Source: Haliotis cracherodii (lineage: Eukaryota). From it: a DNA stretch of 64,000 bases. This document shows, one piece after another, positions 4,500 through 43,000 of the stretch. The DNA is taken from contig NW_027266271.1 in assembly GCF_022045235.1 (NCBI RefSeq), positions 4,836,001 through 4,900,000 of the forward strand, written 5' to 3'. The notes beneath the pieces are model-generated. The model saw only the letters and a program-made list of their open reading frames with translations. It made no database searches and was not told where the DNA came from. Numbering within the stretch: the stretch's first letter is position 1; every line of letters starts with the position of its first letter. A program made the position numbers and the translations under genes.

Positions 4500-5190
4500 C
4501 AACCACAGTGTTACATTTCTCCATGATATAACTACAGCAGTGTTACATCCCTCCATGATACAACTACAGCAGTGTTACATTTCTCCATGATACAACTACA
4601 GCAGTGTTACATTTCTCCATGATACAACTACAGCAGTGTTACATTTCTCCATGATACAACTACAGCAGTGTTACATGTCTCCATGATACCACTACAGCAG
4701 TGTTACATGTCTCCATGATACAACTACAGCAGTGTTACATTTCTCCATGATACAACTACAGCAGTGTTACATTTCTCCATGATACAACTACAGCAGTGTT
4801 ACATTTCTCCATGATACCACTACAGCAGTGTTACATGTCTCCATGATACAACTACAGCAGTGTTACATGTCTCCATGATACAACTACAGCAGTGTTACAT
4901 TTCTCCATGATACAACTACAGCAGTGTTACATTTCTCCATGATACAACTACAGCAGTGTTACATTTCTCCATGATACCACTACAGCAGTGTTACATGTCT
5001 CCATGATACAACTACAGCAGTGTTACATGTCTCCATGATACAACTACAGCAGTGTTACATTTCTCCATGATACAACTACAGCAGTGTTACATTTCTCCAT
5101 GATACAACTACAGCAGTGTTACATGTCTCCATGATACATCTACAGCAGTGTTACATGTCTCCATGATACAACTACACAAGTACTACATTT
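4500..5190. repeat. 32-bp minisatellite A (CAACTACAGCAGTGTTACATTTCTCCATGATA), about 21 near-identical copies
   Basis: Direct 32-bp periodicity. Confidence 0.97.
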
Positions 5191-5349
5191 CTCCGTCATA
5201 AAATAGTTAAGTGTTCCTTTTCACTCTGATAAACCAACTAGAGTGCTACATTTTACACTGATAAAACAAATACACTTCTCCATGTTTCCAACATGCTACT
5301 ACTTTGATGCATGTATCCCTGATAAAACAGCTACAGTGATAAAGTTCTC

Positions 5350-6360
5350 CTTGATAAACCAACAACACTGCTATGTTACTCCCCAATAAACCACCAACAC
5401 TGCTATGTTACTCCCCAATAAACCACCAACACTGCTATGTTACTCCCCAATAAACCACCAACACTGCTATGTTACTCCCAAATAAACCACCAACACTGCT
5501 ATGTTACTCCCCAATAAACCACCAACACTGCTATGTTACTCCCCAATAAACCACCAACACTGCTATGTTACTCCCCAATAAACCACCAACACTGCTATGT
5601 TACTCCCAAATAAACCACCAACACTGCTATGTTACTCCCCAATAAACCACCAACACTGCTATGTTACTCTCCAATAAACCAACAACACTGCTATGTTACT
5701 CCCCAATAAACCAACAACACTGCTATGTTACTCCCCAATAAAACGACAACACTGCTATGCTACTCCCCAATAAAACGACAACACTGCTATGTTACTCCCC
5801 AATAAAACAACACTGCTATGTTACTCCCCAATAAAACAACACTGCTATGTTACTCCCCAATAAAACAACACAAGTGCTATAGTACTCTCCAATTAAACGA
5901 CAACAGTGCTATACTACTCCCCAATAAATCGACAATGCTGCTATGTTACTCCCCAATAAAACAACACAAGTGCCATAGTACTCTCCAATTAAACGACAAC
6001 AGTGCTTTACTACTCCCCAATAAATCGACAACGCTGCTATGTTACTCCCCAATAAAACAACACAAGTGCCATAGTACTCTCCAATTAAACGACAACAGTG
6101 CTTTACTACTCCCCAATAAAACGACAACACTGCTATGTTACTCCCCAATAAAACAACAAAACTGCTATGTTACTCCCCAATAAAACAACAAAACTGCTAT
6201 GTTACTCCCTAATAAAACGACACCAGTGCTATAGTACTCCCAAATTAAACGACACCAGTGCTATAGTACTCCCCAATAAAACGACAACACTGCTATGTTA
6301 CTCCCCAATAAAACGACAACACTGCTATGTTACTACCCAATAAAACGTCAACAGTGCTGC
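5350..6360. repeat. 32-bp minisatellite B (AACCACCAACACTGCTATGTTACTCCCCAATA) with a 96-bp trimeric higher-order repeat near 5840-6130
   Basis: Direct periodicity; ORF 5818..6183 repeats every 32 aa (96 bp). Confidence 0.95.
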
Positions 6361-6735
6361 ATATCTCCCTGGTACAATTTTACTGCTTCAATGTTCCCTG
6401 GTAAAAGAATTACAATCCTTCATTTATCCAAAATATCCAAAATAAATAACTACAGTACTGTGTTTATCCCTGATAACCATCTCCCAAATAGATTCACACA
6501 ATACCCCTTCTTCACTGAACGAAAGGTTAGTCACGTGACATTATTGGATCATTCATTACATGAGGTGACCCAAACGCTTTCTTACCTGTGCAATGAGAAG
6601 TTTGTCCCCCATACTTTAGGTGACATGTAATCCTCACAGTAAAACGAAAATAGTCAAACGAAATTTTACTGGCTTTAATCGTTTAACTTCTTTTGAAGTT
6701 GGAGTATGCATTTAGAAGTTTGAGTACTAAGAAAG

Positions 6736-6989
6736 GCTGTGAAGATCCGGGTTAGACTAGATCTTCAACAACCCATGCTTGACGTAAAAGGTGACTATGC
6801 TTGTCGGAAGGGGGGACTAACGGTATCGGGTGGTCAGGCTGGCTTACTTGGTTGATGCATGTCATCGTATCCCAATTGCGTGGTTCGATGCTCATGATAT
6901 CAATCACTGGATTGTCTAGTCCAGACACGATTATCTACAGACCGCCGCCATATAGCTGGAATATTACTGAGTGCGGCGGTAAACAACAA
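6736..6989 (+). mobile_element. SINE family 2 (no tRNA head visible) with duplicated ATGCTTGTCGTAAGAGGCGACT-like motif
   Basis: Body resembles a recalled abundant abalone SINE. 3' tail GCTGGAATATTACTGAGTGCGGCGGTAAACAACAA is homologous to the family 1 tail. Confidence 0.8.
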
Positions 6990-7011
6990 TGAAAAAATGA
7001 AACGACAAAGA

Positions 7012-7159
7012 AAGGATAAGATACATGGATGAACAACATCTGTATTACAATAAGGAGCGACGTTTCGGTGTAGACTGCTTGATAACGGTGTTTGAACCTA
7101 CACCGAAACGTCGCTCTTAATTGCAATAAAGAAGTTGTTTGTCCATATATCCTATCCTT
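7012..7159. mobile_element. Palindromic Penelope-like terminal-repeat remnant (two inverted 62-bp arms)
   Basis: 7012-7073 is the reverse complement of 7098-7159 (53/62 matches, innermost 19 bp perfect). Right arm carries CGAAACGTCG and AATAAAGAAGTTGT. Confidence 0.75.
7077..7114 (+). ncRNA. Minimal type I hammerhead ribozyme core (C3U/G8A variant), probably truncated
   Basis: GC-TTGATAA-C-[GGTGT ttgaacct ACACC]-GAAA-CG-TC-GC: core boxes, 5-bp stem II, palindromic ACGT stem III. Only 2 bp of stem I are visible. Confidence 0.6.
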
Positions 7160-7284
7160 ACTCTTATATGAAAGAAATAGAAATAGAACCACAATTATGA
7201 GTGTCACTACCAGGAACATGAGGGCCGGTTCCAGGTATACGAGTGTCACTACCAGGTACACCTGGACCGGTTCCAGGTATACGA

Positions 7285-7454
7285 GGGGCGGTCGGGTATC
7301 CTAGTGGTTAAAGCGTTAGCTCGTCACGCCGAAGACCCGGGTTCGATTCCCGACATGGGTACAATGTGTGAAGCCCATTACTGGTGTCCCCCGCCGTGAT
7401 ATTGCTGGAATATTGCTAAAAGCGGAGTAAAACCATACTCACTCACTCACTCAC
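7285..7454 (+). mobile_element. tRNA(Asp)-like SINE, family 1
   Basis: A/B boxes and (ACTC)n tail; TSD TCCAGGTATACGA at 7272-7284 and 7455-7467. Confidence 0.95.
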
Positions 7455-7760
7455 TCCAGGTATACGAGTGTCACTACCAGGTACATGATGGCCGGTTCCA
7501 GGTGTACGAGTGTCACTACTAAGTACACCAGGGCCAGTCCCAGTTATACGAGTGTCACTACTAGGTACATGATGGCCGGTTCCACGTATACGAGTGTCAC
7601 TAACAGGTACATGATGGCCGGTTCCACGTATACGAGTGTCACTAACAGGTACATGATGGCCGGTTCCACGTATACGAGTGTCACTAACAGGTAGATGATG
7701 GCCGGTTCCAGGTGTATGAGTGTCACTACTAGGTACACCTGGGCCGGTTCCAGTTATACG

Positions 7761-7926
7761 CGGGCGGTCGGGTAACCTAGTGGTTAAAGCGTTCGCTCGC
7801 CACGCCGAAGACCCGGGTTCGATTCCCGACATGGGTACAATGTGTGAAGCCCATTTCTGGTGTCCCCCGCCGTGATGTTGCTGGAATATTGCTAAAAGCG
7901 GCGTAAAACCATACTCACTCACTCAC
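7761..7926 (+). mobile_element. tRNA(Asp)-like SINE, family 1
   Basis: A/B boxes and (ACTC)n tail; flanked by TCCAG(T/G)TATACG at 7749-7760 and 7927-7938. Confidence 0.95.
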
Positions 7927-8849
7927 TCCAGGTATACGAGTGTCACTACCAGGTACATGATGGCCGGTTCCAGGTATACGAGTGTCTCAACCAGGTACAC
8001 GGGCGCCAGATTTCAGGTATACGATTACCAGTATAATGTGCATGAATGTCACTATCAGGCATATGACCACTACATGTATGAGAGTTTGACTCCCACCCGT
8101 TCAGGACTAAGACTGAAACTTAATATGAAGATGTGTATGTTTGCCGTGTGTGTATTTACGAATTTATTGAGGGTAGTGTCATTCGATAGTCACAATTCCT
8201 TATTTTCTCCGATCCAAGGCGAGCATGTATTTGTATCAATCTAGAGTAATATTTTTTATGGAATTAAGCGCACCATTAATTGGTTAGACAAATAGCATCG
8301 AACAGCACCAGCTTCGAGCAGATAGTTGATTATATCTCATAGATGAGCAGCGACGTGACACATTAAGTCAGTATAACATTATTTAAAGTGAATCAAGACA
8401 GAGAGTCTACCAAGAAGACCTCTGCCGATATCTGACGGTCACGGAATACTAGGCACTTCGTTAAGAATACGCCAATAGGCCAAAACGGATTTCGTTGAGG
8501 ATTATGTATGTGATTAAGTTTTAATACACTTGCTTTATGGTCAAATACGCATAATATTAATAGCATATCTTCGTCATGTAACGAAGCAAATGCCAAACAC
8601 GAACGCAATCTAGCTGCAACAATGATAAGGAGATACAGATGAATGACCAGAACAGCGATTTGGCCAAAGCTATGTCAAGCTACTTATGATGTAGACCCTC
8701 TATAATGAATTCATTTTATAACAAAAGAAGAACCTTAAAACATCATCGTCTACTGGTATGTAGCCAGCTGTGTCTATCATACGGTGGATACATAGACAGG
8801 TGTCGACTGGTATGTAGCTGGTGTGGCTATCATGTCGCTGACCCAGACA

Positions 8850-10062
8850 TAGAAGACACAATCAACAGATGTAGACAGGACACTATACATACATGGAGAC
8901 AGGACACTATACACAGATGGAGACAGGACACTATACATAGATGGAGGCAGGACACTATACATACATGGAGACAGGACACTATACACAGATGGAGACAGGA
9001 CACTATACACAGATGGAGACAAGACACTATACACAGATGGAGACAGGACACTATACACAGATGGAGACAGGACACTATACACAGATGGAGACAGGACACT
9101 ATACACAGATGGAGACAGGACACTAAACAGGCTGGGGAGAGGACACTATACACAGCTGGAGACAGGACACTCTACACAGATGTAGACAAAATACTCTACA
9201 CAAATGGAGACAGGACACTATACATAGATCGAGACAGGACACTATACACAGATGGAGACAGGACACTATACACAGATGGAAACAGGACACTATACACAGA
9301 TGGAAACAGGACACTTTACACAGATGGAGACAGGACACTGCACAGGCTGGGGAGAGGACACTTTACACAGCTGGAGAGAGGACACTATACACAGGTGGAG
9401 ACAGGACACTATACACACATGGAAACAGGACACTAAACACAGACAGAGACAGGACCCTATAAATAGATGGAGACAGGACACTATAAATAGATGGAGACAG
9501 GACACTATACACAGATGTAGACAGGACCCCATACACAGATGTAGACAGGACACCATACAGATGGAGACAGGACACTATAAATAGATGGAGACAGGACACT
9601 ATACACAGATGTAGACAGGACCCCATACACAGATGTAGACAGGACACCATACAGCTGGAGACAGGACACTATACACAGGTGGGGACAGGACACTATACAC
9701 AGGTGGGGACAGGACACTATACACACATGGAAACAGGACACCATACAGATGGAGACAGGACACTATACACAGGTGGGGACAGGACACTATACACAGGTGG
9801 GGACAGGACACTATACACACATGGAAACAGGACACCATACAGATGGAGACAGGACACTATACACAGGTGGGGACAGGACACTATACACAGGTGGGGACAG
9901 GACACTATACACACATGGAAACAGGACACCATACAGATGGAGACAGGACACTATACACAGGTGGGGACAGGACACTATACACAGGTGGGGACAGGACACT
10001 ATACACACATGGAAACAGGACACTAAACACAGACAGAGACAGGACCCTATACAGGCTGGAGA
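8850..10062. repeat. 24-bp minisatellite (GGAGACAGGACACTATACACAGAT) with a 94-bp tetrameric higher-order repeat at ~9650-10025
   Basis: 8-aa periodicity in ORFs; minus-strand ORFs starting at 9744, 9838 and 9932 are offset by 94 bp. Confidence 0.95.
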
Positions 10063-40027: not shown

Positions 40028-43000
40028 GTCGTGTTGTGTTATGACAAATGAAGGCATGAAAAAGGTATTTTCTAAACCCCCTTTGGGTCTTTAACCTGTT
40101 TCATATGATTTATTACATTGTCTTGTTTTCTGACATTTTCACTAATTATGGATTTTATGCTACTTTACTTTGTTCGAAGCCAGAGACCGAACATTCGTTA
40201 TTTTGTTTGCCATACAAGTGCTAAGGACAAGTTTTTTTCTGTATGGAAAGGGGTTAAATTGCAGCGTTAGAAATTGGCACTGGTCCTGTGGTCCTTGCCA
40301 GACTGCCCAATGGTGAAGGTATCCTAGGGGCTAGTGGAGATTGGCCCATTTTAGGGGTTTTGCTGTGTGTAATCATCGTAGGGACTGCTGGACAAAAACT
40401 GTTAGTTTCTAACCCTGAATTTGAAGATAAATTCGAAAACAGTAAAGTGTAATTTGTTTGTATGAATCCGATTCTCTAGACATGACCAATCTGCATATAC
40501 CATGTTAAGATTTAGTAAAAGAAAACCGGCAGTGTTGAATTATGTTTGTACATTTCTGTTGTTGACATTTGTAGAGGGCTTGCAGAAAAAAGTAAAAGAC
40601 TTGAAATTATGAAAATTTGGCGCAAAAAGAAGTATTCTGTAATATGTCTCCAAGATATTCACATTTCTGATAGAGATAAAGACATATTTAGAAACGATGC
40701 GGGACTTAATTGCATCATAGCTCCTTTTACAAGAAACTCTAGAGGAGTAGCTATTTTATTTAATAATAACACTGAAATCAAAATTCATAAAAGTTATATT
40801 GATAATAAGGGGAACTCTATTATATCAGATCTAACTATTGATGGGATTAAAATGACATTGACTAACCTTTATGGCCCAAATAAAGATGATCCTTCATTTT
40901 ATATAAAAATATTTGAATTAATTGAAGAATTGGGAAACGAATCAATGATTTTATGTGGTGATTGGAACCTGGTATTAAATCCATTTGTAGATCTAGAAAA
41001 TTATAAACATATCAATAACCCTTGTGCAAGAAAGATTATTACAGAGAAAATAGAGCGACTTGATTTAGTAGATATTTGGCGAGAACAAAACCCTGACAGC
41101 AGAAAATTTACATGGTGGAAAAGAAACCCAAACCAACAGGATAGATTAGACTATTTTCTTATTTCACAGAATTTGCATATCCTCTCATGTGATACGGCTA
41201 TTATGACAGGGTATAAATCTGACCACTCCCCAATAACATTTTCATTTTCGAACGCTTTAAGTAAAGAGAGGGGGAGCGGATATTGGAAATTTAACACCTC
41301 ACTATTGCAAAAAGAAGAGTATAGTAAGATAGTCAAGGAGACTCTTAAAGAAACATTACATGAGTATGCTGATAGCAAATATACTGAAGAGGAAATTGAT
41401 TCTCATATTAAAAATTCAACATTGCAACTAACAAATTCTAACTGTCTTTTTCTGGAAACTTTCTTAATAAAGCTAAGAGGTAAAACTATCTCTTTCTCTT
41501 CCTTTTTAAAGAAAGATAAGAACAAGAAACTAAAAGACTTGGAAGAAAATATTAGGGTTCTGGAAGATGAAATAAGAAATGATTTCCAAAATGTAGATGA
41601 AAAAATATTTTCCGATTTATCAACAATGAAAAAACAGTTAGAAAAATACCATGAAGAGGAGGTAAAAGGATCCCTAATTAGGAAAAGAATAACCTGGTAT
41701 AAAGAAGGAGAGAAACCTACAAGTTATTTCTGCCACATTGAAAATAGACATTATACCACTAAACTAATTAATAGCATTAAAACAGAAAAGGGTGAAATTA
41801 TTACAGATCGTAAAACAATCTTGGATGACTTAAAGGATTTTTAGTCTAAACTCTATAAACAGACCTACAAAAATAATAATTTTAATAATAACCTGTTAGA
41901 AGAAATCAACACAGCAAAAATTAATGCAAAAGAATATCATGACCTAGAAAAAGATCTCTCAAAATTAGTCTTATCTATGAAAAATGATAAAAGTCCAGGA
42001 ATAGACGGTTACCCTATTGAGTTTTTCAATTTTTTCTGGAATGATTTAGGAGAATGAATATTTAGATTCATACAGGAAACCTTTGATGACAACTCATTAT
42101 CATGTACAATGAACAGGGGAGTTATCACCTGTCTTCCAAAACCAAACAAAGACAGAAAATTGTTAAAAAACTGGCGCCCAATCTCATTACTAAACGCTTT
42201 ATATAAATTTATCAGCTCATGTGTTGCTAATAGAATTTAAAAAACCTTAAATACAATCATACACCATAACCAAACAGGATTTATTCCAGGTAGATGTATA
42301 AGTGAAAACACTAGGAAGCTCTATGATATTATCTTTGAAACTAAAAGACTTAACAAACCTGGCCTACTCCTATTAATAGATTTTGAAAAGGCTTTTGATA
42401 CAATTTCTAAACCTTTTATAATACAAGTAATGACAAAATTTGGTTTTAGACCGAATATCATTAAATGTGTAGGTATTTTGACTTCAAATACCACTGCATC
42501 TGTTATTCAAAATGGACATCTATCATCATTTTTTAGGCTTGAGAGGGGATGTAGACAAGGAGATCCAATTTCACCCTATTTATTTATTATCGCTGTAGAA
42601 ATTCTAGGTATTATGATAAGAACAAATCCAGATATAAAAGGTATAAGACTTAACGATAAGGAAAGTAAACTAGGTCAGTATGCAGACGATGCTCAATTAT
42701 TTCTATATGGATCTGAAAAAAAGCCCTAATACTTCAATGGATACCCTCAACAAATTCTATCAAATGTCAGGACTTAAAATAAATGTAGAAAAAACAAAAG
42801 CAATTTGGATAGGATCATTGTCTGAAAGTAATCTAGTTTTAGCACAAGACTTTAAACTTGATTGGCATAAGGGAGATTTTGAAATTTTAGGGATAACTTT
42901 AAATGCATCATTGAACGACCTTTGGGTAATCAATACTAGAAAAAGACTAGAACATATTAATAGACTACTAGCTAATTAGCTATATCAACTCTGGTACATA

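What the first reader, a model, noticed from the sequence alone, without database searches (positions are those of the whole stretch)
7012..7159. Palindromic Penelope-type terminal repeat carrying a variant minimal hammerhead ribozyme
Seen: two 62-bp inverted arms enclose TTGATAA-C-stemII(GGTGT/ACACC)-GAAA-CG-TC. Known: Penelope-like elements carry minimal type I hammerheads with a palindromic stem III (ACGU) thought to work as dimers, and C3U/G8A keeps the 3-8 pair; PLE insertions often leave inverted partial terminal repeats. Inference: this is an ORF-less PLE/retrozyme footprint. The antisense arm would sequester the GAAACGUC half of the ribozyme in a long hairpin, silencing it and possibly yielding small RNAs.
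Basis: partly seen in the sequence, partly recalled or inferred. Interest (0 to 1): 0.7.

Follow-up and report, generated by a model that had tools for sequence, protein, structure and literature searches.

The report
Penelope hairpin stubs record ribozyme cutting

Summary
The hairpin and the U3-A8 minimal hammerhead are real. They are not a retrozyme or a regulatory hairpin. They are two head-to-head copies of the 5' leader of an autonomous Penelope-like element (RT plus GIY-YIG-type ORF found elsewhere in this genome). The window copy's one-sided tail lies at 6684-6736, cut off by a later 271-bp insertion. Across copies, 41 of 46 arm pairs have one long and one short arm, and 35 of 46 have target duplications (mode 12 bp). 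Of 58 arms reaching the leader's start, 34 stop in 8 nt about 30 nt behind a TATA box, the likely transcription start. About 41 arms start exactly at the first base after the predicted cut, against 9 and 4 at neighbouring bases, and their partner arms rarely pass the cut (4 of 29, versus 107 of 128). This suggests in vivo cleavage and one RNA templating both arms. The same contrast failed in a sister family. Components are published; this scan noted run-off and cut-site peaks before on other DNA. In passing: an RNase H-bearing LINE sits 17-22 nt behind TATA boxes (23 of 41 sites), including this promoter.

The parts
6684..6736 (-). 3' end and 'tail' of the long (left) arm; holds the first codons of the parent ORF (ATG at 6711-6709); carries a small internal duplication
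   Evidence: BLAST and pairwise alignment to the parent element, 77% over 57 columns; ORF start inside the tail shown in L133
6737..7007 (+). Later insertion of an abundant ~270-bp repeat that splits the left arm; 8-bp duplication AAGAAAGG at 6729-6736 and 7008-7015
   Evidence: 60 hits over 200 bp in 53 of 292 loci then held; junction letters
7008..7073 (-). Left arm: antisense copy of leader positions ~27-94; stops within the stem II loop region
7074..7162 (+). Right (short) arm: leader positions ~2-92; begins at the inferred transcription start (ACTGC, one base lost) and ends at the short 3' end class
7079..7112 (+). Minimal type I hammerhead core, U3-A8 variant, inserted base 9.1, 5-bp stem II, palindromic C15.2-G16.2, predicted cut after C7112; stem I 2 bp (7077-7078 with 7113-7114)
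   Evidence: descriptor in PMC4209133

Best explanation
The hairpin is a decayed head-to-head pair of 5'-leader copies of an autonomous Penelope-like retrotransposon, likely made in one insertion event when both strands of a ~12-nt staggered cut primed reverse transcription on the element's RNA at two internal sites ~34 nt apart and both cDNAs stopped at or before the RNA's likely start. Shown by sequence: leader order TATA box, initiator-like TCACT, hammerhead, ATG in the tail; two 3'-end classes, one per arm; 10-17-bp duplications; a pile-up of arm ends ~30 nt behind the TATA box; a sharp excess of arms starting at the first base after C17; correlated truncation of the two arms. Inferred: the pile-up is the transcription start; the excess at C17+1 is the 5' end of self-cleaved RNA (roughly 1 in 7 paired insertions has both arms downstream of the cut); one RNA, or transcripts of one source copy, templates both arms; the cDNA ends are joined by end joining or microhomology. 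The window copy came from an uncut template, has no promoter, and if transcribed by read-through would fold so that the ribozyme's 3' half is locked in the long stem; it is most likely a neutral fossil.
For: Family: 473 and 1034 exact matches to two patterns, reversed controls 0. Parent ORF: RVT_1 hit E 9e-8, C-terminal AVYHIPC..GQAY.GET..R..EH motif read by eye, homologues with the same Pfam set, one also with PF01541; ORF N-terminus follows the tail in L133. Architecture in 82 anchor-picked loci, 128 arms: 41 of 46 inverted pairs have one long and one short arm; duplications in 35 of 46 (mode 12) versus 20 of 2070 mismatched pairs; 34 of 58 arms reaching +5 stop in -2..+5; stop rate 8.1% per base at -1..+5 versus 1.4% in the body (p 9e-12). 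A sister family shows the same TATA-initiator-hammerhead-ATG layout. An independent TATA-seeking LINE cuts at this same start. Cut site: 41 arms begin at position 42 versus 9 at 43 and 4 at 41 on contigs C1-C41 (p 2e-10); their partner arms pass position 40 in 4 of 29 versus 107 of 128 background arms; in the anchor-picked sample 7 of 9 versus 6 of 35 (p 0.001); both subfamilies contribute (31 and 8). Arms share subtype in 18 of 19 and 14 of 14 loci, shuffle means 9.9 and 4.6. Published biochemistry agrees: both strands cut and extended, two internal start sites, uncut RNA the main template (PMC11167929).
Against: No transcript 5' end or cleavage product was observed; only contigs of guessed-RNA runs were available. 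The cut-site contrast was not reproduced in the sister family: 14 junctions at 42 versus 16 at 41 on C1-C8; the base at 41 is T there, so added or chance T may blur it, but that is my inference. Only 1 of 128 arms in the anchor-picked sample starts exactly at 42. PMC11167929 found no RNA-seq reads ending at the cut site in Anolis; PMC4209133 found low in vitro activity and none for a monomer. Subtype sharing in the anchor-picked sample only equalled the shuffle maximum (18 of 18, 22 of 24). The window's own arms differ at the position-46 subtype site, and no target duplication could be found around the window copy. No intact full-length parent was found. D. virilis Penelope has a TATA-less internal promoter (PMC2377424 passages), so the TATA start is not universal.
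Confidence: 0.75

Rival explanations
1. Self-priming or snap-back: one cDNA (or an antisense template, as proposed for Adineta elements) folds back and copies itself to make the second arm.
For: Arms share subtype and some rare variants (5 shared vs shuffle mean 1.3, max 6); stem II and small palindromes offer fold-back points; PMC3846280 proposes self-priming (passages).
Against: A fold-back copy cannot be longer at its 3' end than the first strand, so the tailed arm should be the one reaching furthest 5'; the short arm does so in 29 of 41 pairs. Centre junctions are scattered. Both strands are extended in vitro (PMC11167929).
Confidence: 0.12
2. The peak at position 42 is not cleavage: it comes from a polymerase pause, from the 2-nt GC microhomology at 42-43, or from source copies that happen to begin there.
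For: Four or five symmetric junctions overlap on GC (e.g. L407, L410); no 42-versus-41 contrast in the sister family; 38 of 43 junctions have A before G42, which I cannot fully explain.
Against: Most junctions at 42 are asymmetric; a pause would not also confine the partner arm (4 of 29); two subfamilies show it; a structure stall is expected 3' of stem I or II, not between C17 and N1.1 (inference).
Confidence: 0.25
3. A non-autonomous palindromic element or retrozyme that spreads as a unit, with the hairpin silencing the ribozyme or feeding small RNAs.
For: High copy number; strong fold; the antisense arm sequesters the 3' core in silico.
Against: Junctions vary copy by copy and either arm may carry the tail; no promoter in the stubs; near-neutral decay with CpG loss at 12.5%; hammerheads are inverted, not tandem monomers, in most loci examined.
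Confidence: 0.05

Closest known systems
Minimal hammerheads of metazoan Penelope-like elements (Cervera and De la Pena 2014, PMC4209133; read parts 1-2 of 4)
   Same: U3-A8 core variant, unpaired base between 9 and 10.1, G10.1-C11.1, palindromic 15.2-16.2, pairs of motifs 100-700 bp apart on opposite strands; a 2-bp helix I is reported for D. virilis.
   Different: That paper has no in vivo evidence of cleavage; here copy ends peak at C17+1. Here the motif sits only 6-9 nt behind the inferred RNA start.
EN+ Penelope-like insertion units with inverted 5'-truncated copy and one-sided 30-40-bp tail (Craig 2021, PMC8557442, passages; Arkhipova 2013, PMC3846280, passages)
   Same: Inverted arms, one tail, short target duplication, ORF start within the repeat or tail, TATATATA plus TCACT in the repeat.
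   Different: The smallest form (about 110-220 bp) dominates here; arm ends pile at the inferred start; the data favour two primers on a sense RNA over self-priming on an antisense template.
Poseidon element PAc of Anolis carolinensis (Frangieh 2024, PMC11167929; read parts 1-2 of 4)
   Same: Two internal RT start sites bounding the tail, both strands cut and extended, uncut RNA as the main template.
   Different: In PAc the ORF starts inside the hammerhead; here about 75 nt downstream of the cut. PAc RNA-seq showed no ends at the cut site.
Metazoan retrozymes (PMC7229834, search listing only; features recalled)
   Same: Short non-coding repeat with a type I hammerhead.
   Different: Not tandem direct monomers; derived directly from an autonomous element's leader.

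Membership tests
Minimal type I hammerhead (PLE type) | Core boxes YUGANRA and GAAA..UH with an intact 3-8 pair | tested here: met
   3-8 pair C-G in 6, U-A in 4 of 10 hand-picked sequences
Minimal type I hammerhead (PLE type) | Stem II with covariation, G10.1-C11.1, inserted base 9.1 | tested here: met
   94% of cells paired, 3 of 5 pairs with changes on both sides; related sequences, so shuffle counts are not probabilities
Minimal type I hammerhead (PLE type) | Helix I of 4-5 bp | tested here: not met
   2 bp in this family, 2-3 bp in sisters; a 2-bp helix I is reported for D. virilis Penelope
Minimal type I hammerhead (PLE type) | Self-cleavage after N17 | not testable with these tools
   Indirect only: excess of copies starting at N17+1 in this family, not reproduced in the sister family
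EN+ Penelope-like element | Single ORF with RT and C-terminal GIY-YIG endonuclease linked to the repeat | tested here: met
   RVT_1; GIY-YIG-type motif by eye only, no Pfam hit for it; one homologue carries PF01541; no intact full-length copy found
EN+ Penelope-like element | Inverted truncated copy, one-sided 30-40-bp tail, short target duplication | tested here: met
   41 of 46 and 35 of 46 pairs; in the window copy the tail is present, the duplication not found
Penelope/Poseidon clade | Placement in an RT tree with reference elements | not tested
   No reference set was used; assignment rests on domain order and motifs recalled from memory
Retrozyme | Non-autonomous unit with tandem direct hammerheads that spreads as a unit through circular RNA | tested here: not met
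   Inverted arms with variable junctions and an autonomous parent; circular RNA not testable

The most novel reading that the evidence does not exclude
These stubs are a genome-wide fossil record of the Penelope copying cycle: a dimeric enzyme primes both target strands on one RNA at two sites, both cDNAs run off the same 5' end, and in a minority of events that end was made by the U3-A8 hammerhead with only a 2-bp stem I, so the ribozyme does cut in the germ line and cut RNA is still inserted. The element's TATA promoter is in turn a landing site for a LINE that homes on TATA boxes.
Probability: 0.55. Interest if true: 0.65.

Novelty: new member of a known kind. Interest (0 to 1): 0.42.

Why it matters
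The window copy does not matter by itself. The family bears on two open points in the papers read: whether minimal Penelope hammerheads ever cut in vivo (PMC4209133 says in vivo evidence is absent; PMC11167929 found no cut-site reads), and how head-to-head units with a one-sided tail arise. The data give exact positions to test: RNA start at leader -1..+2, cut at 41/42, RT starts near 94 and 128. The LINE seen in passing, if confirmed, would be a retroelement that inserts between TATA box and start site in sense orientation and so could capture or break promoters. I did not find that in three literature searches (a fourth gave Ty3 at Pol III genes), but this scan has noted it on other DNA.

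Tried and rejected
Rfam scan: no hammerhead family hit. RNA evidence: no RNA holder on record was listed; contigs of four guessed-RNA runs cannot show starts or cuts and gave no place where many molecules begin or end; not used as evidence. A full-length intact parent was sought through inverted or direct pairs and two DNA searches; only broken copies were found. Strict site-specificity of the LINE for this Penelope site was rejected: among the first 30 LINE loci one insertion cluster (L166-L168) is in this family's site and two (L150, L156) in a sister family's. The LINE is absent from the window. A first look for the cut-site peak in 128 arms showed only 1 arm; the peak appeared only with genome-wide patterns. 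Replication in the sister family was inconclusive. A first alignment for covariation had wrong coordinates for minus-strand loci and was redone. No target duplication was found for the window copy. A sequence look-up in earlier scan notes returned nothing. Supplements of the papers were not read; PMC4209133's min-HHR lists and PMC11167929's Fig. S2 may bear on novelty.

Full report
Observation. The hairpin is there: arms 7009-7073 and 7098-7162, 65 nt, 85% complementary, 55 of 65 Watson-Crick pairs and 3 G-U among the 10 others, folding energy far below all 200 shuffles. The motif is as described, with U3 at 7079 and the predicted cut after C7112. Stem I is only 2 bp. Rfam did not detect it.

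A large family. The window lies in a 1.18-Gb animal genome; the closest named homologues of the parent protein are from abalones. A DNA search gave 1236 candidates, 40 scored. Two exact patterns gave 473 and 1034 matches with reversed controls at 0. In the 30 best loci each copy is two inverted copies of one ~130-nt unit, with a variable centre and in most a ~35-nt extension on one side only. I number the unit from the C of CACTTGC as 1; U3 is 8 and C17 is 41.

Parent element. [quoted passage not shown] One of 120 listed homologues carries PF01541. In L133 the unit runs downstream into MPLKEVIHRLHG..NHLMFLMRC, with the ATG inside the tail; I recall this as a Penelope-type N-terminus. So the unit is the 5' leader of the element's RNA, repeated at the 3' end. 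TATATATA lies about 30 nt upstream of an initiator-like TCACT; the same pair of motifs is reported for Adineta elements (PMC3846280, passages). No intact full-length copy was found.

The window copy. The right arm is unit ~2-92, the left arm ~27-94, and the left arm's tail lies at 6684-6736, separated by a 271-bp common repeat with an 8-bp duplication. No duplication flanks the whole copy. It has no TATA box.

Architecture of the family. I took the first 100 of 1034 anchor matches; 83 loci were analysed, 8 loci already held were left out, one duplicate locus and anchor hits without 3' extension were dropped, leaving 128 arms in 82 loci. 3' ends fall near 91-95 or 125-129. Of 46 inverted pairs (two loci give two pairings each), 41 have one long and one short arm; 35 have a 10-17-bp duplication, 13 of them 12 bp, versus 20 of 2070 mismatched pairs. 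Of 58 arms reaching +5, 34 stop in -2..+5. The short arm reaches further 5' in 29 of 41 pairs, which is against fold-back copying. Arms of one insertion share subtype: 18 of 19 and 14 of 14 in loci L001-L030, 18 of 18 and 22 of 24 in the anchor sample, where shuffles could reach the same values. After insertion the core is not clearly spared: 19 of 764 substitutions versus 58 of 1616 in the 3' part, and 94 of 751 at CpG. A sister family with C3-G8 (1191 pattern matches) has the same order of TATA, initiator, hammerhead and ATG, and many of its copies also end just before the core (read by eye). Ten hand-picked sequences from about five families show changes on both sides in 6 of 9 pairs. These features match PMC4209133 (parts 1-2 of 4 read), PMC8557442 (passages) and PMC11167929 (parts 1-2 of 4 read).

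Does the ribozyme cut? Only 1 of the 128 arms starts exactly at 42. L228 showed repeated starts at 42, so I counted genome-wide: 85, 70 and 20 matches for arms whose expected upstream base is replaced at the 41/42, 42/43 and 40/41 steps. I classified all matches on contigs C1-C41 except two rows of one tandem array (68, 53 of 55, and 16); 17 matches of the first set on C45-C80 were not classified. True junctions: 43 at position 42 after dropping 6 duplicates, 41 after also removing an internal deletion (L403) and a duplicate (L437), and L424/L425 may be one event; 9 at 43, counting the array once and including some probable mutants; 4 at 41 (p 2e-10). In 39 loci starting at 42, 29 have an adjacent partner arm and only 4 of these pass position 40, versus 107 of 128 background arms. 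In the anchor sample, 44 of 82 loci had an adjacent pair: when the index arm starts at 41 or later the partner does too in 7 of 9, otherwise in 6 of 35 (p 0.001). The simplest reading is that a minority of templates were cut at C17 and that both arms were copied from the same RNA. Against this: in the sister family the first 30 matches of each set gave 14 junctions at 42 and 16 at 41 on C1-C8, so the contrast was not reproduced; no RNA end was observed; and PMC11167929 found no reads ending at the cut site. Two literature searches and two broader ones listed no paper on run-off at the start site or on cut-site peaks in genomic copies; supplements were not read.

The LINE. Several copies carry a LINE with AP endonuclease, RT and RNase H domains ('I group' is my recalled label) inserted between the TATA box and the initiator, with different 5' truncations and a duplication of -10..+1; L166-L168 holds three nested insertions. 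Its 3' motif has 3500 exact matches. Of 110 3' ends examined, 87 were distinct: 45 with a duplication, 36 without, 6 running off the locus. After dropping 3 nested and 1 duplicate, 23 of 41 have TATAWA starting 17-22 nt before the duplication in the LINE's sense, 0 in antisense, against a mean of 1.0 in 29 control windows and 1 of 35 Penelope sites. By target cluster it is 19 of 37; initiator-like words follow in 10 of 23 versus 42 of 519 untargeted TATAWA. The 36 sites without a duplication were not tested. Drosophila I-element has only a weak promoter preference (PMC10018349, passages). This supports the start-site reading independently, but the LINE is not in the window.

Earlier scan notes. 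I wrote down the run-off, LINE and cut-site readings (notes) before the matching look-ups. The scan had already noted similar stubs and the LINE hotspot in this genome, TATA-seeking LINEs in other genomes, run-off at the start and cut-site excesses. These are unchecked notes, not support. The partner-arm test did not appear in the lines shown.

Verdict. The feature is a real, ordinary, dead Penelope-like insertion of a known layout with a known hammerhead variant. Its family gives fairly strong indirect evidence for dual priming on one RNA, run-off at a TATA-defined start and occasional cleavage in vivo, with one failed replication. Novelty: new member of a known kind. Interest 0.42.

Noticed in passing
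L039, L044, L062, L065, L066, L074, L076, L084, L086, L087, L090, L166-L168, L239 and 41 resolved sites: An RNase H-bearing LINE (about 3500 3' motifs) inserts in sense orientation 17-22 nt downstream of the first T of TATA boxes, with 8-14-bp duplications ending near the start site; 23 of 41 sites, 0 antisense. Targets include three Penelope families' promoters and other repeats. Full-length copies begin AGT(T/C)G, which would rebuild an initiator at the junction.
   Followed up: yes
L061, L063, L040/L041: LINE sequence appears carried inside Penelope-type units: a 5.3-kb block between inverted leaders with a one-sided tail and a ~12-bp duplication (read by eye), and a hairpin whose centre is the LINE's AAGT tail in both directions.
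   Followed up: partly
L228:2551-3979, L350, L411, L434: Arms starting at the cut site are joined to pieces of the element's own ORF, as if the cDNA jumped after running off a cut RNA; L486-L492 is a 40-bp tandem array whose units each start at the sister family's cut site.
   Followed up: partly
L275, L263, L254: Several LINE targets lie a few bases before an ORF starting MANAQ or similar; the L275 peptide resembles a FLYWCH-type transposase start (recalled, not tested).
   Followed up: no
window 7286-7452 and 7762-7928: Two 96% identical tRNA-headed SINE-like copies (weak Rfam tRNA hits) inside a 42-bp tandem array (about 7187-8010); their 3' end resembles that of the repeat at 6737-7007.
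   Followed up: no
window 5000-6400 and 8770-9490: Long 32-bp and 24-bp tandem arrays flank the region.
   Followed up: no
window 40519-41841 (+): 441-aa open frame with an AP endonuclease domain; it does not match the TATA-seeking LINE at DNA level.
   Followed up: partly
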